From IMG/VR virus record IMGVR_UViG_3300048930_000528, positions 1 through 64,000 of that record: a stretch of DNA of 64,000 nt; one strand, 5' to 3'. This document shows, one piece after another, positions 26,637 through 56,838 of this stretch. This DNA is from a virus. Made by a program: the position numbers and the translations under genes. How positions within the stretch are numbered: the stretch's first letter is position 1; each line of letters starts with the position of its first letter. The notes beneath the pieces were generated by a model, which did not search any database, was not told the origin of the DNA, and saw only the letters and a list, made by a program, of their open reading frames with translations.

Positions 26637-29393
26637 GTGAAACTGTGCGATTTCGAGCTCCTCGACGACGTCACTGAGCCAGTGAAGGCGGCTACGGTGT
26701 CTCCATCCCGTGCATACGGGCTTCGTCCGTACCAAGCGGAGGCCTTCGACGCGATTTACCGCGGCTGGGAAGACCCGGAGGTGCGCGTGCAGATGATTGT
26801 GAAAGCCACGGGATGCTTTCGGAAGGGAACGCCCGTGTTGATGTTTGATGGAAGCGTTAAAGCTATCGAGGACGTCTCCGTAGGGGAGCGGTTGATGGGT
26901 CCAGACAGCCGTCCGCGGTGCGTGATCAGCTTGGCCCAAGGCCACGAGCAAATGTACGAGATTCGTCCGACCAAGGGGGCTTCTCATGTGGTCAACCGTA
27001 GCCATGTCCTGACACTTCTGCGCATCCCTCGCCGGCCTAGTGAGCAATCTAAGGTAGTCGACATGCCACTTGTTGAGTACCTAAACCAGAGCCGTACACA
27101 AAAGCACCTTCTAAAACTTTTCAGGCCCCAATGTGTAGAGTTTGAGGGCACCAATCAGGCGCTTCCCGTGGATCCGTATTTCATGGGGGTTTATCTTGGC
27201 GACGGATCTTGCCTGCATCGCCATTACGGGCGCTGGTCATCCCTCAAAGCTGTCGCCATTACGACCGCAGACCCGGAGATTGTAGCCTCGATCAACGAGA
27301 CTGCATCGAAGCATGGGCTCAATGTGCGTGCTGAGTCTCAAGAGGGCAACAAATCCAAGACCTATCACCTATTCGGAAAGCAGGGGCGCGGCCAGCGGAA
27401 CACGCTGTCACGCATCATGGATTCGCTGGGTGTGTGTTTGGATTCTGGAGCAAAATTCATTCCTCGCGAATACAAGACTGCCAGCATTGCTGAGCGCGCA
27501 GAACTTCTCGCTGGCCTGATTGATACTGATGGAAGTCTCCATGGGTGTGCGGGCTTTGATTTCGTATCCAAGTCGAAGCAGTTAGCCGAGGACGTCGCGT
27601 TCGTTTCTCGTTCCTTGGGGCTGGCTGCTTACGTTAGTCCATGCCGTAAGGGCTGTCAGACGGGTGCAGTTGGTGATTACTACCGGGTATCTATCTCTGG
27701 CGACTGCTCAATTGTTCCATGCCGGCTACCAAGGAAGAAAGCACCGGCAAGAAGGCAGCGGAAGAGCGTCTTGCGGACGGGCTTTTCCGTTCTACCACTT
27801 GGGGTTGAGGAATACTTTGGGTTTTCGCTCGCTGGGGAAGACGGAAGATTCCTGCTAGGCGACTTCACCGTTACCCACAACACCGGCAAGACGGTGCTGT
27901 TCAGCGCAATCGCCAAACACGAGTCCGGACTCGGCCACAAGGTGCTGATTCTGGCCCACACGGACGAGTTGGTTGACCAAGCGATCGACAAATACGCGAA
28001 GCTGATGGGCATGCGGGCCGAAAAAGAGAAGGCCGGCAGCTACGCGAGCCGCTTTGCGAAGACCGTTGTCGGCTCCGTGCAGACCATGGCCGGAAACATG
28101 CGCCTCTCAAGCTGGCCGAAGGGTCATTTTCACACGATCATCGTAGACGAGGCCCACCGTGTCCTGGCCGAGTCCTACCAAAAGGTGCTGAAGCACTTCA
28201 TGGCGGGCGGCGCCCGCGTGATTTGCGTCACTGCAACCCCTGACCGAGGCGATAACCGGCCACTCGGGGAGTTTGTGGACCGTATTTCCTACGAGTACGG
28301 ACTGCTTCATGCCGTCCGGGACGGCTGGCTGATTCGCCCTATCGTGAAAACTATGCCCGTCACGATCGACCTGAACGGCGTTCGCACGAAAAGCCACGAC
28401 TTTGACCAGTCTGAGGTCAGTCATCGACTCGTTCCGTTCATGGCTGCCATCGCCGACGCCATCAAGAAGGCCGCTCCGAACGGCAAGATCATGATTTTCC
28501 TACCGTCGGTTGAGACCGCGCAGATCATGAGTCGCCACATGAACGAGGTCGGCATCACGTGCGACTGGGTGGCCGGCATTTCCGAAGACCGGAAGGCGAA
28601 GATTCAGGCCTACAAGGCGGGGAAAATCCAAGCCATCTGCAACATGGCTCTGCTGACCGAAGGATTCGACCACGACGCCATCGACACGATGGTCATTCTG
28701 CGCCCGACGAAGGTGCGTAGTCTCTACAGCCAAATGGTCGGCCGCGGTACTCGTCCGCTGAATACGATTATCGGAGCCCTGTCGAAGGCGTCGAATGCAC
28801 TGGAGCGCCACGCCATCATCAAGGCATCGGCCAAACCGGTGCTGACCATCTTGGATTTCCTCTGGCTCTACAAGAAGCATGACCTCTGCAAGCCGGCGTC
28901 GCTCGTGTCTGACCGCGAGGACGTCGCCGAGCAGGTCGAAAAGAACATCGAGGCCACGGACGGCGACCTGATTGCAGCCGAGGAGCGCGCCGAGGTGGAC
29001 CTGCTGGCCAAGCTGGAGGAGGCGGTGCGCAAAAACTCCGACCGGAAGGCCGAGGTTGTGGACCCGCTCGCCCTGGCCGCGGAGCTGGGCGACCTTGAAA
29101 TTGCCAACTACACGCCGGACACCAAGCGCGACGCACAGATCCCGACCGTCGAGCAGCTGCGGCAGATCGCAGCCAATGGGGTCAGTGTGGCCAACATCAA
29201 GCACCGGGGACACGCCCGTCTGATTCTTGAGCGGTTGGTCAAGCGGCACGAGCAAGGCCTTTGCCCTGCGCGCCAACTCAACTTCCTACGGACCCTCGGG
29301 ATCGATGCAGCCCACATGAGCTTTCAGGAGGCCAACGACGCCATCAACAAGTGGACCGCCGAGCAGGGCGGAAGGAAGGACGTGATCGCATGA
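26637..29393 (+). CDS. SF2 (ResIII/DEAH) helicase with intein
   Basis: LRPYQ, ATG|TGKT split by intein, DEAH, TATP, LTEGFD, QMVGRGTR. Confidence 0.9.
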   Translation: MKLCDFELLDDVTEPVKAATVSPSRAYGLRPYQAEAFDAIYRGWEDPEVRVQMIVKATGCFRKGTPVLMFDGSVKAIEDVSVGERLMGPDSRPRCVISLAQGHEQMYEIRPTKGASHVVNRSHVLTLLRIPRRPSEQSKVVDMPLVEYLNQSRTQKHLLKLFRPQCVEFEGTNQALPVDPYFMGVYLGDGSCLHRHYGRWSSLKAVAITTADPEIVASINETASKHGLNVRAESQEGNKSKTYHLFGKQGRGQRNTLSRIMDSLGVCLDSGAKFIPREYKTASIAERAELLAGLIDTDGSLHGCAGFDFVSKSKQLAEDVAFVSRSLGLAAYVSPCRKGCQTGAVGDYYRVSISGDCSIVPCRLPRKKAPARRQRKSVLRTGFSVLPLGVEEYFGFSLAGEDGRFLLGDFTVTHNTGKTVLFSAIAKHESGLGHKVLILAHTDELVDQAIDKYAKLMGMRAEKEKAGSYASRFAKTVVGSVQTMAGNMRLSSWPKGHFHTIIVDEAHRVLAESYQKVLKHFMAGGARVICVTATPDRGDNRPLGEFVDRISYEYGLLHAVRDGWLIRPIVKTMPVTIDLNGVRTKSHDFDQSEVSHRLVPFMAAIADAIKKAAPNGKIMIFLPSVETAQIMSRHMNEVGITCDWVAGISEDRKAKIQAYKAGKIQAICNMALLTEGFDHDAIDTMVILRPTKVRSLYSQMVGRGTRPLNTIIGALSKASNALERHAIIKASAKPVLTILDFLWLYKKHDLCKPASLVSDREDVAEQVEKNIEATDGDLIAAEERAEVDLLAKLEEAVRKNSDRKAEVVDPLALAAELGDLEIANYTPDTKRDAQIPTVEQLRQIAANGVSVANIKHRGHARLILERLVKRHEQGLCPARQLNFLRTLGIDAAHMSFQEANDAINKWTAEQGGRKDVIA
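26814..27881 (+). mobile_element. Intein with LAGLIDADG homing endonuclease (356 aa)
   Basis: Starts CFRKGT, LAGLIDTDG, ends VTHN followed by Thr; lower GC. Confidence 0.92.
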
Positions 29394-45480: not shown

Positions 45481-46478
45481 ACACCACCACCCAACCACCC
45501 AAGACCAAGCCGACCCGCATGGATGCACAGGAGGTCATGGACAGCATCGCCACCCAGCTTCCCGAGATCCTTGGCCACATCCACGCCGACGGCGACTGGC
45601 TGTGGTACACAGGCCCGTCGCTCCAGTCCTCGCCAGCCACCCGTCTGGTGCTCAAGGACATCGGCTTCCGGTTCGCGCCCCGCGGCCACGTCATGCCTGA
45701 AGGCAACGGCATCGGATCGTGGGGCCACTCGTGCCTCCGGCCCACGCCGCGCCGCCGCAAAGGCGACCGCCGTGCGGCCACTGCCGACACGCCCGAAGCC
45801 CATGCCGTCGATCCCACGGCGGCACTCGCTGCCCTCTTTGCGTAACCCACGAAACGAACTGACAGCCTCAACCTTTCCATCATCATGAGTACCATGCCCG
45901 CACCCGACATTGCCGCGGTCTTTACCGCCGCCCAAGCCAAGCTCCTCCACCTCGCCGTCGGCCTGCGTGACCGCGAGCCGCTCGCCATGCAGCGTATAAA
46001 CGCTTTCGTCCTCAACAAGACCGGCGCCAAGTTCAACGAGTACCTCACCGGCCCGACGCCCGTCGTCGAGAAGCTCGCCGTCGTGCAGGAAATCACCGCC
46101 ATCGTTGAGTCCGGCGACCTAAGCAAGCTGCCCTCGGCGCCCAACGGCCAAGCCTCGGCCCCGCCGACTGCGCCTCGCACCACCCCGCCGCCGGCCCCGC
46201 CCAAGGTCGAGCAGCCCAAGCAGCCCGAGGTCAAGCAGCCCGAGCCGCCTCCGGCCCCGCCCGCCCCGCCTGCCGTCGACGTGGACGACCTCGCTGACGA
46301 CGACATCGACGCCGACGAACTGGCCGGCGCCATCCAGACCATCGTCAAGGTGGCGGCCAAGCGCAAGGAACCCGCCGCCCCGCCGGCCCCGGCCTTCACC
46401 GAAGCTGACGTGCGCCGCATCATCCGGCACGAACTGGCCGATGCCATGGAGAAGATCGCCAAGGCGCTGCGTGCGTAA
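45477..46478 (+). CDS. Two hypothetical genes (45477..45845, 45885..46478)
   Basis: Coupled ORFs with phage codon usage. Confidence 0.6.
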
Positions 46479-46541
46479 CACCGGCAGTCTGCCACCGGAG
46501 GGGCGAAGCCCCGCAGGTTGGCAGTGATGCCTTGGTTCGAC
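46473..46541 (-). mobile_element. attC-like site A
   Basis: Minus strand GTCGAAC-caag..ctgccaacc..ggtggcag..-GTTACGC with central GGGGC/GCCCC hairpin. Confidence 0.75.
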
Positions 46542-46550
46542 CTTCTTTTT

Positions 46551-47068
46551 ATGAGCTTCGAATACCTGACAACATCCCTCGAAAAAACTCACGCGGCAGC
46601 CCGTGACATGGTCTATCGCGCGACCTTCTTACTCGCGAAACGCGATGACGGAGTGACGGCCTGCGCTCGCCTGCCGCGCCGAAACTCCCGCAAGCTGGAA
46701 ATAGGCTACTGCCTCGGCACGGGTCGAATGACTCATTGGGTCGAAACCGGCATCCTACCGACCGAACATCCCGGCGCGCTCGAATACTGGGTGAAGAAGG
46801 CGTTCTTCTACGCGGACGGACACATAGCGTGTGAGAAAAGGAAAAGCGCATGAGCTACGAAAACACTCAGTGCGTCTGCGGTGGGCGAAAGCTGACCGAC
46901 ACCATGCTGTGCGCCGACTGCGAGAAAGCAGTCGAAGGTACCTTCGACCGCCGCGAGATGGAAAATCCCGCAGCGACATGGGAGCAGCGGCGCAATGCGG
47001 CGATTCGCTGCCTCGCGGTCGCCCGCCGTCGCAACCCAAGCCTACCGCTTACCTATGCGTGCCGATAG
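46551..47068 (+). CDS. Two cassette-borne hypothetical genes (46551..46853, 46850..47068 zinc finger)
   Basis: Bounded by GTTCGACCT (46535) and AGGTCGAAC (47067). Confidence 0.6.
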
Positions 47069-47167
47069 GTCGAACGCACAAGCTGACCTATGACCACCGC
47101 GCCCATGACTACCGAATCCACAACAGACGCCGACGCGGTGGGCATTAAGTCCAGCGCCTTGTTCGGC
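47069..47167 (-). mobile_element. attC-like site B
   Basis: Minus strand GCCGAAC-aaggc-gctggac..ccaccgcg/cgcggtgg..gtcagc-ttgtgc-GTTCGAC. Confidence 0.85.
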
Positions 47168-47725
47168 GTGATTTACGCGGACCCGCCGTGGCGGTATGGC
47201 TTCTCTCAATCGGACTCACGCGCCATCGAGTCGCAATATCCGACAATGACCGACGAGGAAATCTGTGCTATCAAGGTGCCTGCTGCCAAGGATGCCGTGC
47301 TCTACCTGTGGGCGGTGGCTCCACGGCTCGCCGCAGGGCTGCGCGTCATGGAAGCGTGGGGATTCGACTACAAGACTTGTGCTGTGTGGGACAAAGAAAA
47401 GGTGGGCATGGGCTACTGGTGGCGCGGACAGCATGAAATCCTCATGGTCGGAACTCGCGGGAAGTTCTCGCCGCCTCCGCAAGCACTCCGCAAGTCGAGC
47501 GTGATTCGCTGCCCGCGTGGACGGCACAGCGCGAAGCCTGACCAAGTGCGCGACTGGATCGGGGAATGGTATCCCGACGTGCCCAAGCTGGAAATGTTCT
47601 CTCGGCTAAAACGACCGGGCTGGGAGGTCTTTGGAAATCAGGTCGAGTATGACCTGCTAAGCGGGGATTTTTCTTCGCCGAACGTCGCGGGTCAGACACG
47701 ACCCGCCGAAAACTCCAACCTGTAA
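47090..47725 (+). CDS. MT-A70 family N6-adenine methyltransferase (cassette)
   Basis: IYADPPW, YLWA, WGFDYKT, HSAKP, LEMFSR. Confidence 0.9.
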   Translation: MTTAPMTTESTTDADAVGIKSSALFGVIYADPPWRYGFSQSDSRAIESQYPTMTDEEICAIKVPAAKDAVLYLWAVAPRLAAGLRVMEAWGFDYKTCAVWDKEKVGMGYWWRGQHEILMVGTRGKFSPPPQALRKSSVIRCPRGRHSAKPDQVRDWIGEWYPDVPKLEMFSRLKRPGWEVFGNQVEYDLLSGDFSSPNVAGQTRPAENSNL

Positions 47726-47807
47726 CTCCCATGAAAAACCAAAATCCAACTGTAGTCTCTAGCCCGCAGGATCAGTGCGGGTCGTTGTCTGGGAACGCTG
47801 GTTCGGC
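47677..47807 (-). mobile_element. attC-like site C
   Basis: Plus-strand arms cagacacgacccgc / gcgggtcgt[t]gtctg between GCCGAAC and GTTCGGC. Confidence 0.85.
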
Positions 47808-48015
47808 TGCCTTTGCTTTTCCAGTGGGCTCCCGCGTGAAGATCATAGCCGCCGACCCAGAGTGCCCCGCCGACTTTATCGGCTCCGAAGGGACAGTGGT
47901 GAGAATCGCCCCAGCGGATGAAAACTGCTCAGACGATATGTATTCGGTGCGCACGGATAGCGGTAAGCAAGACGGATTCTTTTCAGATGAGCTGATTTCT
48001 TTGCCGAACCAGTGA
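47731..48015 (+). CDS. Small SH3-like hypothetical protein (cassette)
   Basis: FPVGSRVKI..GSEGTVV..YSV; starts inside attC C. Confidence 0.65.
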   Translation: MKNQNPTVVSSPQDQCGSLSGNAGSAAFAFPVGSRVKIIAADPECPADFIGSEGTVVRIAPADENCSDDMYSVRTDSGKQDGFFSDELISLPNQ

Positions 48016-48028
48016 TTGTGCCACGTGC
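48003..48028 (-). mobile_element. attI-like terminal site of array 1
   Basis: Minus strand GCACGTGGCACAATCACTG-GTTCGGC; core present, no partner arm. Confidence 0.5.
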
Positions 48029-48088
48029 GTCCGCATGGACTTGCGTAACTCAATATAAACCAACTCAAACCCAAACCACCCGTGCGAC

Positions 48089-51000
48089 ATGATTAAAGAC
48101 CAACGATCCGGCATCTCTGCGGAGAACCTCCAAGAGATCATCGAGGCCGGCGTCAGCGCAGCGCACTCGCTCCAGGGCGGAGCGCAGCAGTACAGCACGC
48201 CTCAGTGGCTGGCCAACGCCTGCCGCCAGCTGATCACGGACGCCCGGCCTTCGTGCGTCCTTGATCCCCAAGGTGCGGCAGGCAACCTCGTCAATGCCCT
48301 GCCCGATGGCGTCACCCGCTACGTCACGGACATCGACAACCGCATGGGCGAGGACGATGCCTCGCACCTCATCAAGCGCATCAAGGGCAACTGCGTCTAC
48401 ATCTTCGAGCTGTTCGATGAACTGTACCCGCACGTTCAGTTCCCGTGCATCGTCGCCAATCCACCCTTCGGCATCCGCTGGAAGCAGGCCGACGGCACCA
48501 CAATCGACAGCACTCAGTGGACGTGGGACCTCATCAAGAAACGCCTGACCATTGGCGGCTGCGGTTTCCTGATCTCCAACGCCAACACTCTTGAGCGCCT
48601 CGGCATCACCGCGGACCCGTGGGTCTACATCGTGCAGCGCTTCCCGGCCGGCGGCATCTGGCCCGACTGCAACGTTGAGCTTGGCATCGTGCACTTTGCC
48701 AACAGCGCGTCCAATATCCTGCCGCGAAAGCAGGTTGTGACCTGGGACCGTGTACCCACGGCGAGCGACATCATCCGCCGCCTGTCTGGCGACGTTGCCA
48801 ATGCGCCGTACCGTCGGGCGACGTACGCCAACCCATTCACCGAGTTTGAGGTGGTGTCCAAAATCATTTCCGAGGAGGCGAAGAACCGGCCCCAGTTCAA
48901 CATCTACCTCGACAAGAATGGCATGCTGCGGACCTACCTCAGCCTGCGCCATCACCACAAGTTCAAGGAGGACGACGTCAAGAAGCTGTTCCGCGTGAAC
49001 AACTGCCACCCACTATCCCTCACCACGGAGCGCGACACGCGGAAGCTCATGTTCGAGCTGGCCAACGCCGGCATCTACACTATCCAGCCCGAGGCCAAGG
49101 CCGCCATCGAGCAGGCGCTTGCCGAAGTCGCCAGCCTTGCCTGCCCAATCCGCCCGGTCACCGACTTCGAACTGGTCGCCTACGCCGACGAAGAGGACAC
49201 GCTTGTCGCCATCTCCGGCACGGTTGACGGCATCCACCTCACGCCCGGCAAGCGGTACGAAGTTGGCACTGGCACGTACACCTTCACGGATCGCTTCACC
49301 CGCAAGAAGATCCACTTCAACGAGGAGACCGAGGAGACCACGATCGACGAGCACGACTGCGAACTCTCCGGGCAAGATCGCTACGTGCAGATCACGGACG
49401 ACCGAGGCATGCAGCACCGCTTCATGGAGCGACCCGAGACCGGCATCAAATGGATGCACCCGGAGTCCATGCTTTGGACTTTGTTCAAGCGTCCCTTCGT
49501 TCCCACCGTTGGCGAAGTCATGGCTGATTGCGTGGCGACCAACCTCCAGAAGATGGCGTTCTCTGAGCTAGTCGCTGGCTTCACCTATTTCCCCGGCCAG
49601 CGTGACTACTATTCCCGCATGGCGTGCAAGGATTATGGGCTGGTGGCTGCGAGTACCGGATGCCATGCGAAAGGGACGCTAATCATGATGAGCGATGGCC
49701 GAAATAAAATCGTGGAAGACATCATTGTTGGTGATTGCGTGATGGGTTGGGACTCGACGCCGAGGCGGGTCACTCGCTTGGCTCAAGGGCGTCAGCAGAT
49801 GGCCAAGATAATCCCCACTAAAGGAGATCCGTTCGTCGTCAACTTGGACCATATTTTAACGCTGGTTAAGACCGGAACAAGTTCGTCGGTCGGCGGGGAC
49901 GTAATTGACGTGAAGGTCAGAGATTACCTCGGATGGAAGCCATCGCAAAAGCATATTTATAAACTCTTCCGCAAGGAGATTAGCCTACAAGCAAAACCAA
50001 TCGACTCCCTTTCGCCGTACTTCATGGGGGTTTACATTGGCGACGGGACATCGACGTCGTGGCAGGTTGCAATTACAAAGCCCGACAAGGAGGTTGAGGA
50101 TGCTGTTGCCGATGAGTGCTCAAAGTGGGGATGGCGATACAGGACCGCGTTGCGGTCTGGGTCGGAAACGAATAAGACACACTTCATCCCAGGTCACGGC
50201 ATAAAGCGAGAGCTTTATCAACATGGGCTTCTTGGAATACACTCAAGCAATAGGTTTATTCCAGACGCTTACAAGTACAACAGCCGTGATGTGAGGCTTG
50301 AGGTTCTTGCTGGCATCATTGATAGCGACGGCCACCTTTGTGATGCCGGAACATTTGACTACATAAGCCAATCGCAATCTCTTGCCGATGATGTTGTGTG
50401 GTTGGCTAGATCAGTCGGGCTTGCCGCTTACGTGAAGCCATGCCAGAAGTATTGCCAGACCGGAGGCGGAGGCACGTATCATAGGGTTTCCATATCAGGC
50501 GAACTCTCTATCATTCCAACAAGAATCAAGCGCAAGCAAGCCGCGCAACGCAGGCAGAAGAAAAGCGTCCTGCGAACAGGATTCAAAGTTGAGCTTCTGC
50601 CAGAGGATGACTACTACGGGTTCAGTATTGAAGGCGACGGGCGGTTCTTGCTTGGCGACTTTACAGTGACCCACAACACCGGCAAAACCCTGGGGGCTTT
50701 GACACTCATCAGCCTCAAGGCGCCGCGCCGTTCGCTCATCATCGCTCCGCAGGGAACGATGCGCTCGTCCGGCTCGGAGGAGGAGGTTGATTATCAGGCA
50801 TCGCAGTGGGTGCAGGAGATCACGCGCTTCGCCCCGCTCGAGCCCGTGTTCCAGTTGTTCAGCATGCAGGATTACCTGTCCGTCCTGCACGCCAACGGCG
50901 GCGTGCTTCCGCCCGGCATCTACGTCACCTACCCGCAGGCTTACTTCTCCAACAGCGCCTTCGAGTCCTTGCCTGCCACATGGGAAAACCTCGACGCCTT

Positions 51001-52420
51001 CGAGACAGAGGAAAAGTTCTGCCGGCGCATGGGCCTGCCGTTCAGCAAGGATACTCCCGTGGAGCGCCACTACCACACTGGCGTTGGCTCGGCCAAGAAC
51101 GGTATCCGGTGCGTGGCGACGCCGTCGCTGTCCACCGTCATCGCAACCAACCATGGCGAGTGGGACATGGTTGTCTTGGACGAGGCGCACCTTTACCAGA
51201 GCCTTGAATCTTGCATCACGAACAACATGATCCGGCTTCAACCGCGGTTCAGGTTCGCACTCACTGCCACACCAATCAGCAACATCATCACGAACATATT
51301 CAGCCTCATGGGTTGGCTGTGCGTGAAGGACTGGTACAGGGGTGGGATGCGTAACGCCGCATGGCCCTATGCCGTGGACGAGGGGCATCGGTTTTCGACG
51401 ACATTCCTTGCCACCGAGATCGACCGCACGGCGCAGCTCAAAGCCAAGATGAAAGGCAAGAAGGGGTGGGGCAAGATCGGCATCAGGCCGTCGCCCGTCA
51501 TCAGTTCCCCGGCTCGCCTGCTCAAGCTCCTCAAGCCGACGATGGCGTACATCTCCAAAGAGGACTGCAACCCCAACCTCCAGCCGTGCACCGTGTCCGA
51601 TGTCCGCGTGCCAATGGGTCGCGAGCAGGCCAAGCTCTATGCGTACTGGCTGGAGCGGGCCAACTACGTTCCCGAGTTCAAGAACCCGCTGACGATCGCC
51701 CAGGTTCAGATGTCCCGGCTGCGTGGCGTCTGTGCCTCGCCGGCCAGCCTCGACTACACCCGCGGCATGGCCCGGTCCAACTTCAACCCGAAGACCGTCA
51801 CCATCCTTCAACTCATCCGTGACTGCCTCCGCAAGGGCGAGCAGGTGGTTGTCGTCTCGGCTCGTGTTGGCCAGTCAAACGAGTTGGCGCGTCGCCTTTC
51901 CGAGGCCGGAGTCCAGATCGCACGCATCGACTCGACCGTGCCGGCGGAGATGCACACGGCTGAGGCCAACAGGTTCAAGCGTGGCGACGCCCGCGTCATG
52001 CTCATGGGCATCAAGTGCGCACAGGGTCACTCGTTTGACCGATGCCCCAACCTCATCGTTGGCTCGCTCGAGTGGTCCTACGGCACGCTCGACCAGGCGA
52101 AGGGCCGGGTGTGGCGCCTGACCTCGCCTCAGCCCGTCAAGGTGTGGATCGTCCTTCACCAGAACACGATTGAGGAGCTCCTGTTCGACCGGGTTGCGCT
52201 CAAGCAGGACGCCGCCACGCTGTGCCTTCACGGCAAGCGGGTGCCGCGTGACTTCAAGACGCTTGACCCGAGCGAGGTGCTGGCCGAGCACATCGTTGAC
52301 TTCGACCACGAAGGCGAGACGCGGTCCGAATCCGAGTGCGAAACGCAGTGGCCCGACCTGCGCAAGCAGCTCGTCCTCGCCAACAACAGCGGCATCCCGG
52401 CCGGCTTCGCCGCGGCCTGA
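48089..52420 (+). CDS. DarB-like N6-methyltransferase + SNF2-type helicase fusion with intein
   Basis: QYSTP, VLDP..AAG, NPPF; STG|TGKT split by intein, LDEAH, TATP, QAKGRVWR. Confidence 0.85.
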   Translation: MIKDQRSGISAENLQEIIEAGVSAAHSLQGGAQQYSTPQWLANACRQLITDARPSCVLDPQGAAGNLVNALPDGVTRYVTDIDNRMGEDDASHLIKRIKGNCVYIFELFDELYPHVQFPCIVANPPFGIRWKQADGTTIDSTQWTWDLIKKRLTIGGCGFLISNANTLERLGITADPWVYIVQRFPAGGIWPDCNVELGIVHFANSASNILPRKQVVTWDRVPTASDIIRRLSGDVANAPYRRATYANPFTEFEVVSKIISEEAKNRPQFNIYLDKNGMLRTYLSLRHHHKFKEDDVKKLFRVNNCHPLSLTTERDTRKLMFELANAGIYTIQPEAKAAIEQALAEVASLACPIRPVTDFELVAYADEEDTLVAISGTVDGIHLTPGKRYEVGTGTYTFTDRFTRKKIHFNEETEETTIDEHDCELSGQDRYVQITDDRGMQHRFMERPETGIKWMHPESMLWTLFKRPFVPTVGEVMADCVATNLQKMAFSELVAGFTYFPGQRDYYSRMACKDYGLVAASTGCHAKGTLIMMSDGRNKIVEDIIVGDCVMGWDSTPRRVTRLAQGRQQMAKIIPTKGDPFVVNLDHILTLVKTGTSSSVGGDVIDVKVRDYLGWKPSQKHIYKLFRKEISLQAKPIDSLSPYFMGVYIGDGTSTSWQVAITKPDKEVEDAVADECSKWGWRYRTALRSGSETNKTHFIPGHGIKRELYQHGLLGIHSSNRFIPDAYKYNSRDVRLEVLAGIIDSDGHLCDAGTFDYISQSQSLADDVVWLARSVGLAAYVKPCQKYCQTGGGGTYHRVSISGELSIIPTRIKRKQAAQRRQKKSVLRTGFKVELLPEDDYYGFSIEGDGRFLLGDFTVTHNTGKTLGALTLISLKAPRRSLIIAPQGTMRSSGSEEEVDYQASQWVQEITRFAPLEPVFQLFSMQDYLSVLHANGGVLPPGIYVTYPQAYFSNSAFESLPATWENLDAFETEEKFCRRMGLPFSKDTPVERHYHTGVGSAKNGIRCVATPSLSTVIATNHGEWDMVVLDEAHLYQSLESCITNNMIRLQPRFRFALTATPISNIITNIFSLMGWLCVKDWYRGGMRNAAWPYAVDEGHRFSTTFLATEIDRTAQLKAKMKGKKGWGKIGIRPSPVISSPARLLKLLKPTMAYISKEDCNPNLQPCTVSDVRVPMGREQAKLYAYWLERANYVPEFKNPLTIAQVQMSRLRGVCASPASLDYTRGMARSNFNPKTVTILQLIRDCLRKGEQVVVVSARVGQSNELARRLSEAGVQIARIDSTVPAEMHTAEANRFKRGDARVMLMGIKCAQGHSFDRCPNLIVGSLEWSYGTLDQAKGRVWRLTSPQPVKVWIVLHQNTIEELLFDRVALKQDAATLCLHGKRVPRDFKTLDPSEVLAEHIVDFDHEGETRSESECETQWPDLRKQLVLANNSGIPAGFAAA
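49661..50677 (+). mobile_element. Intein with LAGLIDADG homing endonuclease (339 aa)
   Basis: Starts CHAKGT, LAGIIDSDG, ends VTHN followed by Thr; lower GC. Confidence 0.92.
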
Positions 52421-52424
52421 CACC

Positions 52425-52625
52425 ATGAGCAACGACTTCGAGAAGGTGGAGCTTCACGGCGGTCCGCTTGACGGGCTTGAGTTGTTTGCCAGCGAATCGT
52501 TCAAGCTGGAGGAACTCGATCCCGAGACTGGGCTCATCCACGTCTACGTGAGACGCGGCAGTGGCGTCTTCCAGTACGCCGGCCACCAGCCATCCGGCCT
52601 GCCTCCGGCGCTGGGCGGAAGCTGA
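52425..52625 (+). CDS. Hypothetical protein
   Basis: LHGGPLDG motif common in small phage proteins. Confidence 0.55.
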   Translation: MSNDFEKVELHGGPLDGLELFASESFKLEELDPETGLIHVYVRRGSGVFQYAGHQPSGLPPALGGS

Positions 52626-52626
52626 T

Positions 52627-52656
52627 TTGACATTGCCAAATCGCCGGATGTAACCT
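52627..52656 (+). promoter_or_regulatory. Sigma70-like promoter upstream of second recombinase
   Basis: TTGACA-18 nt-TAACCT, 11 nt before ATG. Confidence 0.55.
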
Positions 52657-52667
52657 CGGATTCCAGC

Positions 52668-53669
52668 ATGCCCACGACAAAGAAAGCCGCAGGACTCAAG
52701 ATCAAGGCGATGGACTCCACCAAGGTGACGCCGGCGGCGATCCGCGCAGCCAAGAAGATCCTTCGGGCCGCCGAAGAGTCGGGCATGCAGGATGCAATCC
52801 TCGCTGCGCTCATGCAGCGGAAGACCGTACCCGTGAAGCAGGCCTTGGCCGAGTGGCACCTATGGCGGAAGGCGAACTCGTCAGCGTCCACGCTCCGCAC
52901 CAACCGGCTGGCACTAGATCAGTTCTTCGATGGGCTCGAGGCCGCAAACTGGCCGGTGTCAAAAATCACGATCCAGCACATTGACGCATGGGTTAACAAA
53001 GACGACGCCTGCAAGCGGGCCACCCGCGAGGCAAAGCTCGCCGCCATCCGATCGTTCTACAAGTTCGTCACCGCGAATGCCTATTGCCAGACCAACCCGG
53101 CGCAGCTGGTGCATGTTCGCATTCGCGACATGACGCACGCTCAGCTGGAGCGCACCGTGCGCGAGCCCATCACCGAGCACGAGTACCGGCATATCATGGC
53201 CAACACCGAAGGCTTTTGGAAATGGGCAACGGCGATCAGCTACTGGGCGGGGCTGCGCATGAGCGACGTGTTCGCACTCCAGTGGGCTCAGATCATGCCC
53301 ACCGAGATCGTAGCCTGGGCGAAAAAAGACGGCGACCGGCTAGTGCTTCCACTCAACCACCCGCTCATCGGCGGAGGGGAGTTGGTGCCTGTGCTGTTCG
53401 AGGTATTGAGTAATCGCCAAGACGATACATACTGCTTCCCCGATCAGCATCGCGAGATGGCCGACATCGAGAAGCGTTCCAAGTTCTCGGTCTACTATAC
53501 ACGCCTGCTTGCCGGGCTAGGCATTGAAGGCAAGAGCTTCCATTCGCTGCGGCATGCGTTTGCCACCCGGCTCGCCAACGCAGGGGTGACACCTGAGCAG
53601 ATCGGGCGGTGGATGGGGCACAGTTCGACGCGCATCACCGAGGGGTACATCCACCGCGGCAAGCGATGA
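52668..53669 (+). CDS. Tyrosine recombinase (Xer/Int-like, no IntI insertion visible)
   Basis: GLRMSD, AKKDG, FHSLRH, MGHSS, GY. Confidence 0.9.
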   Translation: MPTTKKAAGLKIKAMDSTKVTPAAIRAAKKILRAAEESGMQDAILAALMQRKTVPVKQALAEWHLWRKANSSASTLRTNRLALDQFFDGLEAANWPVSKITIQHIDAWVNKDDACKRATREAKLAAIRSFYKFVTANAYCQTNPAQLVHVRIRDMTHAQLERTVREPITEHEYRHIMANTEGFWKWATAISYWAGLRMSDVFALQWAQIMPTEIVAWAKKDGDRLVLPLNHPLIGGGELVPVLFEVLSNRQDDTYCFPDQHREMADIEKRSKFSVYYTRLLAGLGIEGKSFHSLRHAFATRLANAGVTPEQIGRWMGHSSTRITEGYIHRGKR

Positions 53670-53709
53670 TCGGTAAACCATCATCAATCATCGAATCCCT
53701 GATCGTCCA

Positions 53710-54188
53710 ATGAGTAACCCACAGAACGAACTGACGCCGTCCGCTGGCCCGAATTGCGCTGTGGCGTCTGGTTCGCCTCCGGGGCTCTACAACCTATACG
53801 TCCGCCACACCGATGGGCGCACAAAGAAACTGACGGGCTACGCGATGACACATCACGAGTGCTGCGTGATGAAGAGCAAACTAAGCGAATGGACGCAGGC
53901 TCGCACACTGCTCGTAAAGGAGACGAAATGAAACACGACCCAGACCACTACCTCACGCAGCCGATGGACAATCAGGAGGCGGCGCACAATCGCCGCGTGG
54001 CCGTGACGGCCGAGAACGTCGCCGCGTGTGCGCAAGCCATCCGCGACCTCGACCGCATCACGCCGCGCCCGCTCACCGCCGAAGACCAAGCGCGTGCCGT
54101 GCTCACGTTCTTGGCGAACACCAAGGTGACCGATGCGCAGCCCAAGGCGAACGACGCCGGACCGGGTAGCAATGCGCATTCGGTCTAG
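53710..54188 (+). CDS. Two cassette-borne hypothetical genes (53710..53931, 53928..54188)
   Basis: Between GTTCGCC (53771) and GGCGAAC (54113); ATGA overlap. Confidence 0.6.
53727..53777 (-). mobile_element. Truncated attC-like site E
   Basis: Minus strand GGCGAAC-cagac-gccacagcgcaa arm (same as site I arm); partner arm degenerate. Confidence 0.6.
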
Positions 54189-54201
54189 CGAATGGTTCAG
54201 C
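54113..54201 (-). mobile_element. attC-like site F
   Basis: Arms gaccgatgcgca / tgcgcat[t]cggtc between GGCGAAC and GTTCAGC. Confidence 0.88.
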
Positions 54202-54209
54202 CCTCTTTT

Positions 54210-54482
54210 ATGCCCTCACCAATCGAAAGAATGATCGACGCCGCGACCGGCTACACGCCGCCGCCAGCGCCGAAGAAACGCACGCTCCCGACTGCCGAAG
54301 AAAAGCAGATAGCGACCGATGCCGGAAACGACGTCATCTGGTATATCGACGCGCAGTATCCCGCGATGTGGGACGGCGTGCCGAAGTCAGCGCGGACCAG
54401 CGTGAAAAACGCCGTCTACAACCGCGTGATCTTAATCTTGCTGAACGCCAAGATCAGCAACGCGGGGACGAAAACAGAATGA
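54210..54482 (+). CDS. Hypothetical protein (cassette)
   Basis: Between GTTCAGC and GCTGAAC; stop lies in attC G. Confidence 0.65.
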   Translation: MPSPIERMIDAATGYTPPPAPKKRTLPTAEEKQIATDAGNDVIWYIDAQYPAMWDGVPKSARTSVKNAVYNRVILILLNAKISNAGTKTE

Positions 54483-54569
54483 CTCTATGAGCACGAAAAT
54501 CGAAGACAAACCCATAGCGAGCGCCGGAGCGGACAGCTCCCCGCGTTGCGCTGTATCGCCTGGTTCGAC
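54440..54569 (-). mobile_element. attC-like site G
   Basis: Arms gatcagcaacgcgggga / tccccgcgtt[gc]gctg[t]atc between GCTGAAC and GTTCGAC. Confidence 0.88.
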
Positions 54570-54771
54570 GATTGAAACGACCGAACGCAAGGTGATGGTC
54601 GCGCTCTGCGGACTGTGCATCGCCGTCTTCTGCGCGGCTCTTCTCGGCATCGCTTTCTACGTGCATGTCGTCGCCGGGCTATTCGCTCTCGCGCTCATCG
54701 CGTGGTGGCTCGGCTCATCGATGGCCGAAGTGCTCAAGGAAACTCGCGAGCGTGATTCGTCGAACGACTAG
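54487..54771 (+). CDS. Two-TM membrane protein (cassette)
   Basis: Starts inside attC G loop; long hydrophobic segment. Confidence 0.7.
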   Translation: MSTKIEDKPIASAGADSSPRCAVSPGSTIETTERKVMVALCGLCIAVFCAALLGIAFYVHVVAGLFALALIAWWLGSSMAEVLKETRERDSSND

Positions 54772-54854
54772 GTATGCCAGCCCTACCCGCCATCGATGTT
54801 GATTCGCCAGTAACTGCCCGCCGGGTAGGGATTGGCATGACCGACTTGTTCGGG
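54759..54854 (-). mobile_element. attC-like site H
   Basis: Arms ggtatgcca.ccctacccg / cgggtaggg..tggcat[g]acc between GTCGAAC and GTTCGGG. Confidence 0.88.
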
Positions 54855-55331
54855 GTTGTGGACGTGGTGCCGAGTGACATCGTGCTGACCCCGGAACCAA
54901 TCGCGCAAGCCGTGGTGGAACGCTTCAAACCATCTGGCCGCGTGCTCGATCCGTGCAAGGGAGATGGTGCCTTCCTGAAGTTCATGCCTGGTGCTGAGTG
55001 GTGCGAGATTCGCGAAGGCCGATGCTTCTACGACTGGAAAGAGCCGGTGGACTGGATCGTCTCGAATCCACCTTACAGCGTCTTCTCGGACTTCCTTCGG
55101 CACAGCTTCACGGTGGCGGAAAACATCGTCTATCTGATCCCCGTCAACAAGGCGTTCAACTCTGACAAGATGATGCGCGAAATCTGGTCATGGGGAGGCG
55201 TGAAAACCATCTTCGTGATTGGCTCCGGTGGATCGCTGAACTTCCCAATCGGCTTCTGCATAGGAGCTGTTCACTTCGTGCGCGGCTATCGGGGCGGCGC
55301 GAATGTGGAATTTTATACCCCGAACACCTAG
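54774..55331 (+). CDS. Small N6-adenine DNA methyltransferase (cassette)
   Basis: TP..IA, VLDPCKGDGAF, WIVSNPPYS. Confidence 0.85.
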   Translation: MPALPAIDVDSPVTARRVGIGMTDLFGVVDVVPSDIVLTPEPIAQAVVERFKPSGRVLDPCKGDGAFLKFMPGAEWCEIREGRCFYDWKEPVDWIVSNPPYSVFSDFLRHSFTVAENIVYLIPVNKAFNSDKMMREIWSWGGVKTIFVIGSGGSLNFPIGFCIGAVHFVRGYRGGANVEFYTPNT

Positions 55332-55412
55332 CTCAGACATGGCTGGCTCTCCCTCAACTCTCGAACACTTGGCGGCCCCGCGCCAGCCATTGTCTGTGGC
55401 GTCTGGTTCGCT
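55319..55412 (-). mobile_element. attC-like site I
   Basis: Arms cagacatggctggc / gccagccat[t]gtctg between CCCGAAC and GTTCGCT. Confidence 0.88.
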
Positions 55413-56130
55413 GCTTCTTTGGAACGCGGACTGCATAGAAGTGCTGCCACAAATCACGGCGGCGGCGGTTATCACCGATCCGCCCTATGGCATCAACGAT
55501 GCAGCTTTCGATTCGGGGCCACGCGAAGGAAAACGCAAGGGAGGCGATAATACTTGGCATCCGGCAAGCGATTGGGATGCGGAGATAAAGCCGGAATGGT
55601 GCGCTGCGGTATGCGCTGCCGCGCCGGTGGTCGCATGGATGGGCCACTGGAGAAAACGCGGCATGGTAGAGGCAGCGATGCCCCACAAACTGCGCGCGGA
55701 AATAGTGTGGGCAAAAGACTGCCATGTAGGCCCGCCATGTCCGGTGGCAATGCAGGATGAGCGCGTGTGGCTATTCTCGCGCGAAGGCATCACGGCTAAG
55801 CGATTTGACACGACCGTGTGGAGCGTTCCGATAATCCCGACGTGGGCACATAAGCACCACAAAAACGAGAAGCCGGTCGCGCTGATGGCGCGAGCGATCT
55901 ACCTGCTGACATCCGAAGGTGATACCGTGCTCGATCCATTCATGGGGAGCGGCACGACGGCAATCGCGTGCATCCGGACGGGCCGCAAATTCATCGGGGT
56001 GGAGCGCGACCCCGCGCACTTCCAAACGGCAGTCGAGCGCATCCGCCGAGAACTGGCACAGGGCGACCTGTTTTTGCCAGCGAACACTGAGGTCAGAGAA
56101 TCGCGCCCTGACCCGACCAAACAACCCTGA
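55339..56130 (+). CDS. N4/N6 beta-class DNA methyltransferase (cassette)
   Basis: ITDPPYG, H..EKP, VLDPFMGSGTT, FIGVE. Confidence 0.9.
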   Translation: MAGSPSTLEHLAAPRQPLSVASGSLLLWNADCIEVLPQITAAAVITDPPYGINDAAFDSGPREGKRKGGDNTWHPASDWDAEIKPEWCAAVCAAAPVVAWMGHWRKRGMVEAAMPHKLRAEIVWAKDCHVGPPCPVAMQDERVWLFSREGITAKRFDTTVWSVPIIPTWAHKHHKNEKPVALMARAIYLLTSEGDTVLDPFMGSGTTAIACIRTGRKFIGVERDPAHFQTAVERIRRELAQGDLFLPANTEVRESRPDPTKQP

Positions 56131-56187
56131 ACCTTCAACGAACAATCAGAGCGGCTGCACGCGATTCTCTGCACCGTCTGGTTGGGA
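56079..56187 (-). mobile_element. attC-like site J
   Basis: Arms ggtcagagaatcgcg / cgcgattctctg[c]acc between AGCGAAC and GTTGGGA. Confidence 0.88.
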
Positions 56188-56196
56188 ATTTCCATC

Positions 56197-56457
56197 ATGG
56201 ACCAAATACTAAAAGCACGATCTGCAATCGTCGCGGAACTCAAACGCCGCGCTCTGGAAAAAGACCCGAACGTAAGGCCACTGAATCCGGATGCCGCCCT
56301 TCGCTGGCACAAGCCGCAGGACAACTACTATTCGGGCGCTGGCGAAATGGCGTGCCCGATCTGCGAGGCAGGGAAACTGCGCTACAGCCGAAGCGGCTAC
56401 AATGGGCATGTCCACGCGGGCTGCACAACGGAAGGGTGTGTGTCATGGATGGAGTGA
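56197..56457 (+). CDS. Zinc-ribbon hypothetical protein (cassette)
   Basis: CPIC..YNGHVHAGC..C..WME. Confidence 0.7.
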   Translation: MDQILKARSAIVAELKRRALEKDPNVRPLNPDAALRWHKPQDNYYSGAGEMACPICEAGKLRYSRSGYNGHVHAGCTTEGCVSWME

Positions 56458-56467
56458 CCGCGACACT

Positions 56468-56580
56468 TCCCAACGAAAAAGGTGAGCCGCGCTCGCCGAA
56501 GAAAGGACAATGACATGAGCGGAGAAAAGACATCCGAAGACGTGACGGCTGCGAGCGTTGGCTCTACCGACGGGTTCGGC
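56468..56580 (-). mobile_element. attC-like site K
   Basis: Minus strand GCCGAAC-ccgtc-ggt[a]gagcc[a]acgctcgc..gcgagcgcggctcacc-tttttc-GTTGGGA. Confidence 0.9.
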
Positions 56581-56838
56581 GATGGCTGCGACCACTGTGA
56601 CACCTTCGGAGGGCAGAAGACCTACGCGAACCAAGCGTGCCTGCCGCTCAACGGTCGCGTCGTGTGCGTGGACTGGTGCATCCATCAAATCGTGGCGGCG
56701 CTCAACGCCGGCGGCGTGCGCACGACTGCGTGCTGCTGCGGTCATGGGCGAATGCCGGGCCGCATCGACCTTGAGGACGGCCGCATACTCACGATCTCTT
56801 CGCCGAACAAGGCGGATATGCCGACGTGCAGCAAATAA
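56515..56838 (+). CDS. Cys-rich hypothetical protein (cassette)
   Basis: VDWCI..LN..G..T..CCCGHG motif; starts in attC K. Confidence 0.7.
   Translation: MSGEKTSEDVTAASVGSTDGFGDGCDHCDTFGGQKTYANQACLPLNGRVVCVDWCIHQIVAALNAGGVRTTACCCGHGRMPGRIDLEDGRILTISSPNKADMPTCSK
56802..56829 (-). mobile_element. attI-like terminal site of array 2
   Basis: Minus strand GCACGTCGGCATATCCGCCTT-GTTCGGC; core present, no partner arm; resembles 48003-48028. Confidence 0.5.

What the first reader, a model, noticed from the sequence alone, without database searches (positions are those of the whole stretch)
46473..56838. All cassette genes are antisense to their attC sites, and attC DNA encodes protein termini
Seen: extrahelical bases sit in the right-hand arm on the plus strand, so the canonical attC top strand is the minus strand, yet all 12 cassette ORFs are on the plus strand. 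Start codons lie inside the sites (47090, 47731, 54487, 54774, 55339, 56515) and genes read through the next core, giving recurring N-terminal ...GS/...FG and C-terminal PN/AN/SN/LN peptides (SPNVAG, LPNQ, LANTK, LLNAK, SSND, TPNT, PANTE, SPNKAD). Established: ordinary cassettes have the ORF upstream of and co-oriented with attC and are read from Pc near attI. Inference: these are phage-adapted reverse cassettes read by the phage operon; each attC supplies the translation start of its own gene and the stop of its neighbour, so shuffling changes C-termini.
Basis: partly seen in the sequence, partly recalled or inferred. Interest (0 to 1): 0.88.

Follow-up and report, generated by a model that had tools for sequence, protein, structure and literature searches.

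The report
Reverse-oriented attC-like cassettes in phage
A 72-kb phage carries two arrays of integron-type hairpin recombination sites whose genes run backwards relative to normal integron cassettes and use the sites themselves as start, stop and coupling signals, which suggests a phage-adapted way of swapping anti-restriction genes.

Summary
A purpose-built scanner finds 10 AAC…GTT-anchored imperfect hairpins in the 64-kb window. Nine lie in 46.4-56.6 kb (60 shuffles: mean 1.8). All sit at junctions of plus-strand genes.

Their geometry matches integron attC sites almost base for base: an R box with invariant AAC/GTT, a 5-nt unpaired spacer, and extrahelical bases at positions 16 and 22. The outer extrahelical base is T in 30 of 30 aligned sites.

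On the coding strand the bulges lie opposite the 5'-AAC, which is the bottom-strand configuration (Nivina 2016). Two checks support this:
- Genuine attC sites in two phage records give the opposite result in the scanner.
- A covariance model of the phage sites hits genuine Vibrio attC only on the strand opposite their ORFs.

The left-core AAC is an in-frame Asn codon wherever it lies in a gene. That frame always stops inside the site, often as ATGA. DNA homology with an unrelated phage begins exactly at a left-core AAC.

The same site family occurs in at least seven other records, including a complete phage with no tyrosine recombinase. No IntI is present. Recombination itself is not shown.

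Phage attC clusters (CALINs) carrying methyltransferases were published in 2023. The reversed, frame-standardised layout appears new. Earlier notes of this scan on the same genome flagged the same arrays.

The parts
46473..46541 (+). Site W1, the first site of array 1. Left core GCGTAAC, whose TAA is the stop of gene 45885-46478. Right core GTTCGAC. The start of g1 lies inside the site.
   Evidence: Scanner (score 9, bulge in the right arm). Fold. Not reported by model R1 at E<=1.
46518..47068 (+). Cassette 1 cargo: g1 (46518-46853) and g2 (46850-47068). Small ORFs with no family hit.
47069..47167 (+). Site W2. Contains the g3 start codon (47090) as ATGA. Extra bases at right-arm positions 16 and 22.
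   Evidence: R1 70.6 bits (a training sequence). Homology with G003 starts at its AAC.
47090..47725 (+). g3, an MT-A70 DNA methyltransferase. The N-terminal 24 aa and the C-terminal tail after Asn198 are encoded by sites.
   Evidence: Pfam PF05063, E 2e-17, domain aa 25-184. Most IMG/VR homologues align only from residue about 25.
47677..47807 (+). Site W3. Contains the g3 tail and stop, and the g4 start codon (47731).
47731..48015 (+). g4, a small protein. It ends LPNQ* across an orphan left core (GCCGAAC, 48003-48009) that has no partner arm. This is the end of array 1.
52668..53669 (+). g7, a tyrosine recombinase of a Xer-like simple type. It is not IntI. It is conserved at this position in relatives that lack the sites.
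   Evidence: Pfam. NCBIfam TIGR02249 31.9 bits against a cut-off of 265. Synteny.
53724..53778 (+). Short degenerate site W10s inside g8. It has the cores and a 7-bp stem but no mini-helix.
   Evidence: Not reported by R1.
53710..54188 (+). g8 (53710-53931) and g9 (53928-54188). No family hit.
54113..54201 (+). Site W4. It lies in the g9 C-terminus. The g10 start ATG (54192) abuts the right core GTT.
54440..54569 (+). Site W5. Contains the g10 tail and stop and the g11 start codon (54487).
54759..54854 (+). Site W6. Contains the g11 ending …SSND* and the g12 start codon (54774), which lies in the left stem.
54774..55331 (+). g12, a DNA methyltransferase.
   Evidence: phrog_799, E 5e-22. A weak N6_Mtase Pfam hit.
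55319..55412 (+). Site W7. Contains the g12 ending …TPNT* and the g13 start codon (55339), which lies in the left stem.
   Evidence: A W7-like site follows a different gene in G005.
55339..56130 (+). g13, an N6/N4 DNA methyltransferase.
   Evidence: PF01555, E 6e-25. Phage homologues align from residue 17-27 onwards.
56079..56187 (+). Site W8. Right core GTTGGGA. Contains the g13 tail and stop. g14 starts 14 nt after the site (56197).
56468..56580 (+). Site W9. Left core TCCCAAC, 15 nt after the g14 stop. Contains the g15 start codon (56515).
56515..56838 (+). g15, Cys-rich. It ends SPNKADMPTCSK* across an orphan left core (GCCGAAC, 56802-56808). This is the end of array 2.

Best explanation
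The two arrays (46.47-48.01 kb and 53.7-56.84 kb) are clusters of integron-type attC recombination sites with no integron integrase. That makes them a phage-borne CALIN.

They are built in the reverse sense to ordinary cassettes. The coding strand carries the bottom-strand configuration of every site. A cassette runs from the C of one left-core AA|C to the AA of the next left core, and so contains:
- its own hairpin;
- the ribosome-binding region and start codon inside that hairpin;
- the gene body.

The boundary always splits an Asn codon in the same phase, or coincides with a TAA stop. Any upstream gene therefore reads a few codons into the neighbouring site and stops there, often at an ATGA that overlaps the next start. 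This would allow translational coupling inside the phage's polycistronic transcript without an integron Pc promoter.

The cargo is mainly orphan DNA methyltransferases (anti-restriction) plus small proteins of unknown function.

What is shown: site architecture and strand, the phase rule, cassette-bounded homology, and spread among unrelated phages.

What is inferred: that the sites fold as single-stranded DNA and are recombined, most likely by a host integron integrase because some carrier phages have no recombinase; and that the arrays are transcribed with the flanking phage genes.
For: 1. Nine sites in 10.2 kb against 1.8 expected in 64 kb.

2. In an alignment of 30 sites from 7 records, AAC and GTT are invariant and the outer bulge T is present in 30 of 30. 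Of 629 cells, 90.9% are paired, against 68% in shuffles and 28-41% when the partner is slid. Cells changed on both sides number 139, against 45 in shuffles. The sites were picked as hairpins, so pairing is partly built in. The register and the invariant T are not.

3. The geometry matches published attC rules: AAC crossover triplet, unpaired spacer, first bulge at position 16, a conserved T as the furthest bulge on the bottom strand (Nivina 2016). The same scanner on real attC gives bulges at 16 and 23 in TJE1, and three bulges in Vibrio phage p16 whose placement (14, 20, 24 as aligned; the first lies in a T-run, so 16 is equally possible) is compatible with Nivina's 16/20/24. In both records the bulges are on the AAC arm of the sense strand.

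4. Model R1 hits Vibrio attC 8 of 8 times on the antisense strand, 3 of them at E<0.01.

5. G·T wobbles in the two inner helices: 14 on the coding strand against 3 on the other.

6. Phase. AAC is in frame in 6 of 6 window sites plus 2 orphan cores, 3 of 3 in G001, 3 in L197 and 3 in L193, and 1 in GenBank-annotated MW202573, which also has one TAA|C. The frame-0 stop lies inside the site at all 22 two-cored sites listed (the short site W10s counted once, at its first listed AAC), 1-23 codons after the AAC.

7. G000-G003 homology starts at AAC 47073. The two genomes otherwise share only methyltransferase segments and one weak helicase-like match (27% over 149 aa).

8. The closest relative, G001, shares the backbone but none of the cassette regions, and has 3 sites with other genes at a different place.

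10. Qi 2023 (PMC9892861; abstract, section 3.4 and passages read) showed that phage attC clusters exist, carry methyltransferases and are recombined by IntI1.
Against: - No recombination event, excised circle or population variant was seen, and no sequencing run was listed.
- No IntI in the genome: best 21-32 bits against a cut-off of 265. The host is unknown.
- Bulge spacing is 5 bp. Nivina 2016 states that IntI1 needs a 6-bp stem. The first bulge is C in 21 of 30 sites, not the usual G.
- The window's cores read GTTCGNN, so the fourth base is not a purine as in GTTRRRY.
- Whole-site folding energy shows no strand preference: mean difference 0.1 kcal/mol with DNA parameters, and G·T pairs in MFE folds number 1.7 against 2.7 in favour of the other strand.
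- The standard attC models (IntegronFinder, HattCI) could not be run.
- The same hairpins exist in the mRNA, so an RNA-level role cannot be separated from a DNA-level role.
- A W7-like site sits next to a non-homologous gene in G005. That is not explained by exchange at the left core alone.
Confidence: 0.7

Rival explanations
1. The hairpins work only in the mRNA. They would be inter-cistronic structures that couple translation of neighbouring genes or serve as processing or stability sites. Their likeness to attC would be convergent, and no site-specific DNA recombination would occur.
For: The hairpins are on the sense strand, so every transcript carries them. Start codons lie in the loop or left stem. 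A frame-0 stop often overlaps the next start as ATGA. G·T wobbles favour the coding strand in the inner helices, 14 against 3. No recombinase is shared by the carrier phages.
Against: An RNA role does not explain several findings:
- the invariant AAC/GTT triplets;
- bulge positions that match attC, and the full-length model hits on genuine attC bottom strands;
- the fixed codon phase at AAC while the distance to the stop varies from 1 to 23 codons;
- homology blocks that begin or end at the AAC;
- the absence of the arrays from the closest relative.
Confidence: 0.12
2. The sites are portable homology linkers. Their conserved arms (for example CTGTGGCGTCTGGTTCG) would let the phage or host homologous-recombination machinery shuffle genes, as proposed for the promoter-stem-loop (PeSL) repeats of T4-type phages. 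No structure-specific recombinase would be involved.
For: An 18-nt exact repeat occurs between two sites, and a 21-nt pattern has 3 copies against 0.03 expected. The arm consensus is shared across records. No dedicated recombinase is present in G003. A W7-like site is joined to a different gene in G005.
Against: Most site pairs share only about 10-20 nt, with differing stems. The bulges, the unpaired spacer and the invariant T have no role in homologous exchange. Compensatory changes keep the stems paired in orthologous sites (W2, L197_3, L286). The promoter scan is at chance level.
Confidence: 0.1
3. The neighbouring non-IntI tyrosine recombinase g7 (52668-53669) is the enzyme that recombines the sites. 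The locus would then be a self-contained phage 'integron' with a new integrase type.
For: g7 lies between the two arrays. In G001, G002 and L123, short sites lie 130-250 nt upstream of its orthologue. Xer-type enzymes can act on folded single strands; this point is recalled (CTX phage) and was not tested.
Against: About 30 syntenic relatives keep the recombinase but have no sites. G003 is a complete genome with 16 sites and no PF00589 match, and G004 also has none. g7 lacks IntI-specific features.
Confidence: 0.05

Closest known systems
Integron attC sites in clusters lacking an integrase (CALIN), including those reported in phages (Cury 2016, PMC4889954; Qi 2023, PMC9892861)
   Same: Imperfect hairpins with AAC/GTT cores, an unpaired spacer, one-sided bulges and a variable loop. 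Several sites lie within a few kb with no IntI. The cargo includes orphan DNA methyltransferases. One published phage CALIN record (MW202573) is hit by my model.
   Different: Genes lie on the bottom-strand-like strand. Start codons lie inside the sites and the coding phase at AAC is fixed. Bulge spacing is 5 bp rather than 6 bp, and the first bulge is mostly C. In the parts of Qi 2023 that I read, ORF-versus-attC orientation is not discussed. TJE1 from that paper has the canonical orientation.
Canonical integron cassettes (class 1, Vibrio chromosomal integrons)
   Same: The unit is bounded at the A|C of the AAC triplet. One hairpin per cassette. The array shows variable gene content.
   Different: In canonical cassettes the ORF lies upstream of and co-oriented with the attC top strand and is expressed from Pc beside intI/attI. 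Here there is no IntI, attI or Pc, and the ORF reads out of its own attC.
ORF-11 of attI1 (review PMC8876359, passages read)
   Same: A short reading frame crosses the recombination junction and stops inside the GTTRRRY core. This couples translation to the first cassette.
   Different: That is a single case at attI1. Here the same principle is standardised at every attC, with one phase.
T4-type PeSL repeats and mycobacteriophage start-associated sequences
   Same: Repeated intergenic elements at gene starts in hyperplastic phage regions, proposed to aid modular shuffling or translation.
   Different: Those are promoter or ribosome-related sequence motifs without attC geometry. Here no promoter signal exceeds chance.

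Membership tests
attC site | Imperfect hairpin whose base (R box) carries a conserved 5'-AAC…GTT-3' | tested here: met
   AAC and GTT are invariant in 30 of 30 aligned sites. Nine window sites were found by scanner.
attC site | Core consensus RYYYAAC / GTTRRRY | tested here: inconclusive
   The window's right cores are GTTCGNN in 7 of 9 sites (C at the fourth base), plus GTTCAGC and GTTGGGA. G003 cores are mostly GCCTAAC/GTTAGGC, which fit.
attC site | Unpaired central spacer between the R and L boxes | tested here: met
   A 5-nt non-complementary spacer on each arm in A3, and in the folds.
attC site | Extrahelical bases on one arm only, with the furthest one a conserved T on the bottom strand | tested here: met
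   Bulges occur only in the 3' arm of the coding strand. The outer bulge is T in 30 of 30. The rule is taken from PMC5027507.
attC site | First extrahelical base usually G, and a 6-bp stem between first and last bulge (IntI1 requirement) | tested here: not met
   The first bulge is C 21, T 6, G 3 of 30. The spacing is 5 bp. TJE1 attC shows 6 bp in the same scanner.
attC site | Recognised by the curated attC covariance or HMM models (IntegronFinder, HattCI) | not testable with these tools
   These models are not available here. Rfam gave no hit. As a substitute, my model R1 cross-hits genuine Vibrio attC.
attC site | Recombined by an integron integrase as folded bottom strand | not testable with these tools
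   This needs a bench assay.
CALIN | At least two attC sites close together with no integron integrase nearby (definition in PMC4889954) | tested here: met
   Three sites in array 1 and 6-7 in array 2. There is no IntI in the 72-kb genome. This holds only if the sites count as attC.
Complete integron | intI gene (TIGR02249 above cut-off) with attI and Pc | tested here: not met
   g7 scores 31.9 bits against 265. The genome-wide best is 21 bits.
Canonical cassette layout | ORF on the attC top strand, upstream of its attC | tested here: not met
   The coding strand is the bottom-like strand for 9 of 9 window sites.
PeSL-type phage shuffling repeats | Early promoter plus terminator-like stem-loop | tested here: not met
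   Promoter-like sites 5 against 3.3 expected, and terminator-like sites 13 against 13.1. The definition of the feature is recalled.

The most novel reading that the evidence does not exclude
These arrays may represent a distinct, phage-adapted branch of the integron cassette world. In it, 'reverse' cassettes with a standard codon phase at the crossover point and built-in translational coupling would plug any anti-defence gene into any phage operon. The cassettes would circulate among unrelated phages, mobilised by host integron integrases or by an enzyme not yet recognised. The fusion of an attC to the 5' end of a gene, adding a 20-25-aa N-terminal extension that is absent from site-less homologues, may also show how new cassettes are made.
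Probability: 0.4. Interest if true: 0.85.

Novelty: new variant of a known kind. Interest (0 to 1): 0.68.

Why it matters
Integron biology rests on the rule that cassettes are inserted so that promoterless ORFs face away from Pc on the attC top strand. Bottom-strand selectivity is explained as the guardian of that orientation.

Here a family of arrays in at least eight viral or MAG records breaks the rule in a regular way. The site is also used as a translation module with one fixed phase. If the sites are active, phages would own a plug-and-play system for swapping methyltransferases and other counter-defence genes.

The finding also offers natural material for two open questions: how attC sites become attached to genes, and what decides strand choice. 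It gives a concrete, searchable model (R1) and clear bench tests.

If the sites turn out to be inactive, they are still a conserved, covarying inter-cistronic structure of unknown RNA function in phage early or accessory regions.

Tried and rejected
- Rfam at gathering thresholds over the whole window: no hit.
- Megablast of 46.4-57.3 kb against cultured phages: no match.
- A 17-mer right-arm pattern against IMG/VR: 56 single-copy hits. By my own rough estimate (not a tool result) that is about the chance number, so it was uninformative.
- Single-protein locus searches with the integrase and with the giant protein's C-terminus found no close relatives. An integrase alignment was needed.
- Core-agnostic hairpin scans of 19 relatives showed no comparable arrays in the low-GC relatives.
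- The scanner on 80 metagenome loci gave 26 hits in 565 kb, on 88 viral loci 57 hits in 525 kb, and on 80 genome loci 39 hits in 743 kb. These are near background except for the records named in the report.
- Folding-energy and MFE G·T asymmetry between strands: no consistent difference.
- L095, an AT-rich locus, gave 9 scanner hits that look like low-complexity or terminator hairpins. It was set aside.
- P12002L (29% GC) gave only noise in the scanner and no R1 hit. TJE1 gave no R1 hit.
- Searches for a shared recombinase in G000, G001, G003, G004 and G005: no serine recombinase and no Y1 transposase. A PF00589 search of G003-G007 matched only G006.
- Sequencing runs: none was listed. There are no expression data.
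- Supplementary tables of Qi 2023, which hold attC coordinates and strands, were not opened. They may already show the orientation in MW202573.
- Literature searches returned no paper describing reverse-oriented, phase-standardised attC cassettes. That is the basis of my 'not in print' statement, and only listings and abstracts were seen for most hits.

Full report
**Context**

The window is bases 1-64000 of a complete 72,049-bp IMG/VR virus record with direct terminal repeats.

Between 46.4 and 57.2 kb all credible genes are on the plus strand and are tightly packed:
- g1 and g2, with no family hit
- g3, an MT-A70 methyltransferase
- g4
- g5, 1443 aa: an SNF2-type helicase interrupted by a Hint/LAGLIDADG intein, with an N-terminal region that had no family hit here (the scan's earlier notes call the gene DarB-like)
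- g6
- g7, a tyrosine recombinase
- g8 to g11
- g12, a DNA methyltransferase (PHROG hit)
- g13, an N6/N4 methyltransferase
- g14 to g16

A giant minus-strand gene follows.

Reading the junctions shows one recurring design. A left core (C/G)AAC is followed by about 8 nt, then a 12-16-bp stem, then a 20-70-nt loop holding the stop codon, the ribosome-binding region and the start codon. The complementary stem follows with one or two extra bases, then about 9 nt, then GTT(C/G).

I wrote a scanner for this design. It takes AAC…GTT pairs 40-150 nt apart and aligns the arms from the cores inward.
- It returns 10 hits in 64 kb, 9 of them between 46,477 and 56,576.
- Sixty dinucleotide shuffles give 1.8 ± 1.5 per 64 kb, maximum 6.
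- Other palindromic triplets as anchors give 0-5 hits in the region, partly on the same hairpins.
- The whole 72-kb genome adds no further site.
- Extra bases are in the right arm in 8 of 9 by scanner, and in the ninth by alignment.

**Are they attC-like, and which strand?**

Nivina et al. 2016 (PMC5027507; abstract and passages read) give the rules:
- The only conserved sequence is AAC.
- Crossover occurs between A and C on the bottom strand.
- Extrahelical bases lie opposite the AAC arm on the bottom strand and on the same arm on the top strand.
- The first is usually G at position 16. The furthest is a conserved T at position 23/24.
- IntI1 needs a 6-bp stem between them.

Counting from the outer end of the 7-nt right core, the phage sites have a 5-nt unpaired spacer, a 3-bp mini-helix, a bulge at position 16, a 5-bp helix, a bulge at position 22, and then the upper stem.

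I aligned 30 sites from seven records with MAFFT.
- AAC, GTT and the outer bulge T are invariant.
- The first bulge is C 21, T 6, G 3.
- 90.9% of 629 pair cells are standard pairs, against 68% in column shuffles and 28-41% when partners are slid by 1-3 columns.
- 139 cells are changed on both sides, against 45 in shuffles.

The sites were chosen as hairpins, so pairing as such is partly circular. The common register, the invariant T and the fixed bulge positions are not.

**Calibration on genuine attC**

The same scanner finds 7 attC sites in the integron of Vibrio phage Va_90-11-286_p16 (MK672802) and 2 in Tetrasphaera phage TJE1 (NC_019930). All have their bulges on the AAC arm of the ORF-sense strand. 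In TJE1 they lie at positions 16 and 23.

So ordinary cassettes and the window's cassettes give opposite results in one and the same test.

I then built covariance model R1 from the 30 phage sites on their coding strand.
- Besides its training sequences, it hits the Vibrio attC sites 8 times, always on the strand opposite the cassette ORFs and over the full model length. Three hits have E<0.01 and the rest have E 0.16-0.82.
- It never hits the sense strand.
A canonical top-strand attC model would place the window's sites on the minus strand.

G·T wobbles in the two inner helices are 14 on the coding strand against 3 A·C, which fits folding of that strand. Whole-site MFE energies, however, show no strand bias.

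**Coding overlap and phase**

Wherever the left-core AAC lies inside the upstream gene, it is an in-frame Asn codon:
- 6 of 6 window sites, plus both orphan cores
- 3 of 3 in G001
- 3 in L197
- 3 in L193
- 1 in MW202573, judged on GenBank's own CDS annotation

The exceptions are not out-of-phase cases.
- In three sites the stop codon TAA supplies the AA of AAC (W1, L198_2, MW202573).
- In three sites the AAC follows the stop (W2, W9, L198_1).
- For L197_3, no upstream ORF of 60 codons or more reaches the AAC.

In frame 0, all 22 two-cored sites listed (counting the short site W10s once, at its first listed AAC) have a stop 1-23 codons on and inside the site. Frames 1 and 2 often stay open for more than 90 codons. 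In roughly half of the sites by my reading of the contexts (not counted by script), the frame-0 stop is the TGA of an ATGA that holds the next gene's start. This is true even where the present upstream gene stops earlier (W2).

The right core has no fixed phase: GGT-TCG four times, G-TTC-G three times, GTT once. Start codons are always to the right of the left core. Both facts fit exchange at the left core, which is where the bulge rule independently puts the crossover.

**Are cassettes units of exchange?**

The integrase family led to 36 viral loci with conserved synteny: g5, a variable gap, the integrase, a variable gap, and the giant gene.
- In the two closest relatives (G001/L061 and G002/L060, 49-50% integrase identity) the giant gene ends 10-70 nt after the integrase. 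Array 2 is absent.
- G001 shares the backbone but none of the cassette regions.
- G001 instead has three sites of the same design with three unrelated small ORFs between g5 and the integrase. G002 has one short site there.
- Lower-GC relatives keep the integrase but have no sites.

The g3 cassette recurs in G003, a complete 44.65-kb phage that otherwise shares with G000 only methyltransferase segments and one weak helicase-like match (27% identity over 149 aa). The 73%-identical DNA block (605 nt) begins exactly at left-core AAC 47073 and ends about 17 nt before the next left core. The 100 nt upstream are at random level. The gene therefore travels with the site that holds its start, not with the site that follows it.

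In L286 (85% identical gene body) the orthologous site has diverged, but both arms changed together. The same holds in L197.

In G005 a g13-type methyltransferase is 78% identical at DNA level up to about 6 nt before the Asn codon. It then continues into a different site (W7-like, not W8-like) and has a different tail. This is a direct example of a C-terminus set by the neighbouring site. It also shows that one site type can be joined to different genes.

**Distribution and enzyme**

R1 finds 33 sites in 46 further loci (793 kb). All are in G001 (3), G003 (16; one of these is counted twice at the record ends), G004 (8), G005 (4) and L123 (2).

Other R1 searches gave:
- only the 4 G005 sites among 86 MT-A70 or N6_N4 loci (515 kb);
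- 6 sites in MAG contigs L286, L289 and L292, and none in 18 other loci;
- 2 sites in MW202573, a record in which Qi et al. reported a CALIN.

The model strand equals the strand of the adjacent identified gene in every case except two G003 sites (10522-10625, 11612-11701). There the coding strand is uncertain. GC3 values and an ATGA hint at the same rule.

G003 has no tyrosine recombinase. None of G000, G001, G003, G004 or G005 has a serine recombinase or a Y1 transposase. g7 is not an integron integrase. A phage-borne enzyme common to all carriers is therefore not apparent, and a host integron integrase is the most economical candidate. This is inference.

**What is known already**

Qi et al. 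2023 (PMC9892861; abstract, section 3.4 and passages read) reported 17 CALINs in phages, five cassette-borne methyltransferases, and IntI1-mediated recombination of five phage attC sites. Cury et al. 2016 (PMC4889954, passages read) defined CALINs. A review (PMC8876359, passages read) describes ORF-11 of attI1, a frame that ends inside the core of the first cassette and couples translation.

None of the texts I saw describes arrays whose genes all lie on the bottom strand, start codons inside attC, or a standard phase at the crossover point. Supplements and figures were not seen.

**Verdict**

The element is best filed as a phage CALIN of a new, reverse and translation-integrated layout.

Three features differ from textbook attC: 5-bp bulge spacing, a C as first bulge, and GTTCGNN cores. 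Activity, enzyme, host and transcription remain untested.

Noticed in passing
window 48089-52420 and 26637-29393: g5 carries a Hint + LAGLIDADG intein (about aa 525-865) that is missing from all syntenic relatives. A second helicase ORF also carries intein-like sequence and shares 41 nt at 88% identity with it (50645-50685 against 27849-27889).
   Followed up: partly
window 52668-53669: The window's tyrosine recombinase lacks the roughly 45-aa N-terminal segment present in more than 20 relatives of its family (alignment A1).
   Followed up: no
window 45842-45863 and 53714-53735: A 22-nt repeat at 91% identity. A copy of the left part of the short site W10s lies just upstream of gene 45885-46478. 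It may be another degenerate site or an older array boundary.
   Followed up: no
window 21161-22282: A second tyrosine-recombinase-like ORF (373 aa) gives a weak match to the integron-integrase model, far below the cut-off.
   Followed up: no
L095 7172-7233, 7864-7909, 9265-9387: An AT-rich 162-kb viral contig shows hairpins flanked by TTATAAC…GTTATAA. These could be terminators or another repeat family. Model R1 does not hit them.
   Followed up: partly
G003 (L280) 10522-10625 and 11612-11701: Two sites lie in the opposite orientation to the main 13-site array, and both are followed by the same sequence of about 33 nt. The coding strand there is unresolved.
   Followed up: partly
L286 (2-kb contig of a MAG labelled Verrucomicrobiota): This contig holds the closest g3 homologue (85% aa identity) with three sites. 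It is the only hint at a host clade, and the binning of so short a contig is unreliable.
   Followed up: no
window 48003-48009 and 56802-56808: Both arrays end in an orphan GCCGAAC half-site with no partner arm. This is what would be expected for a junction with a non-attC target (attI-like or secondary site).
   Followed up: partly
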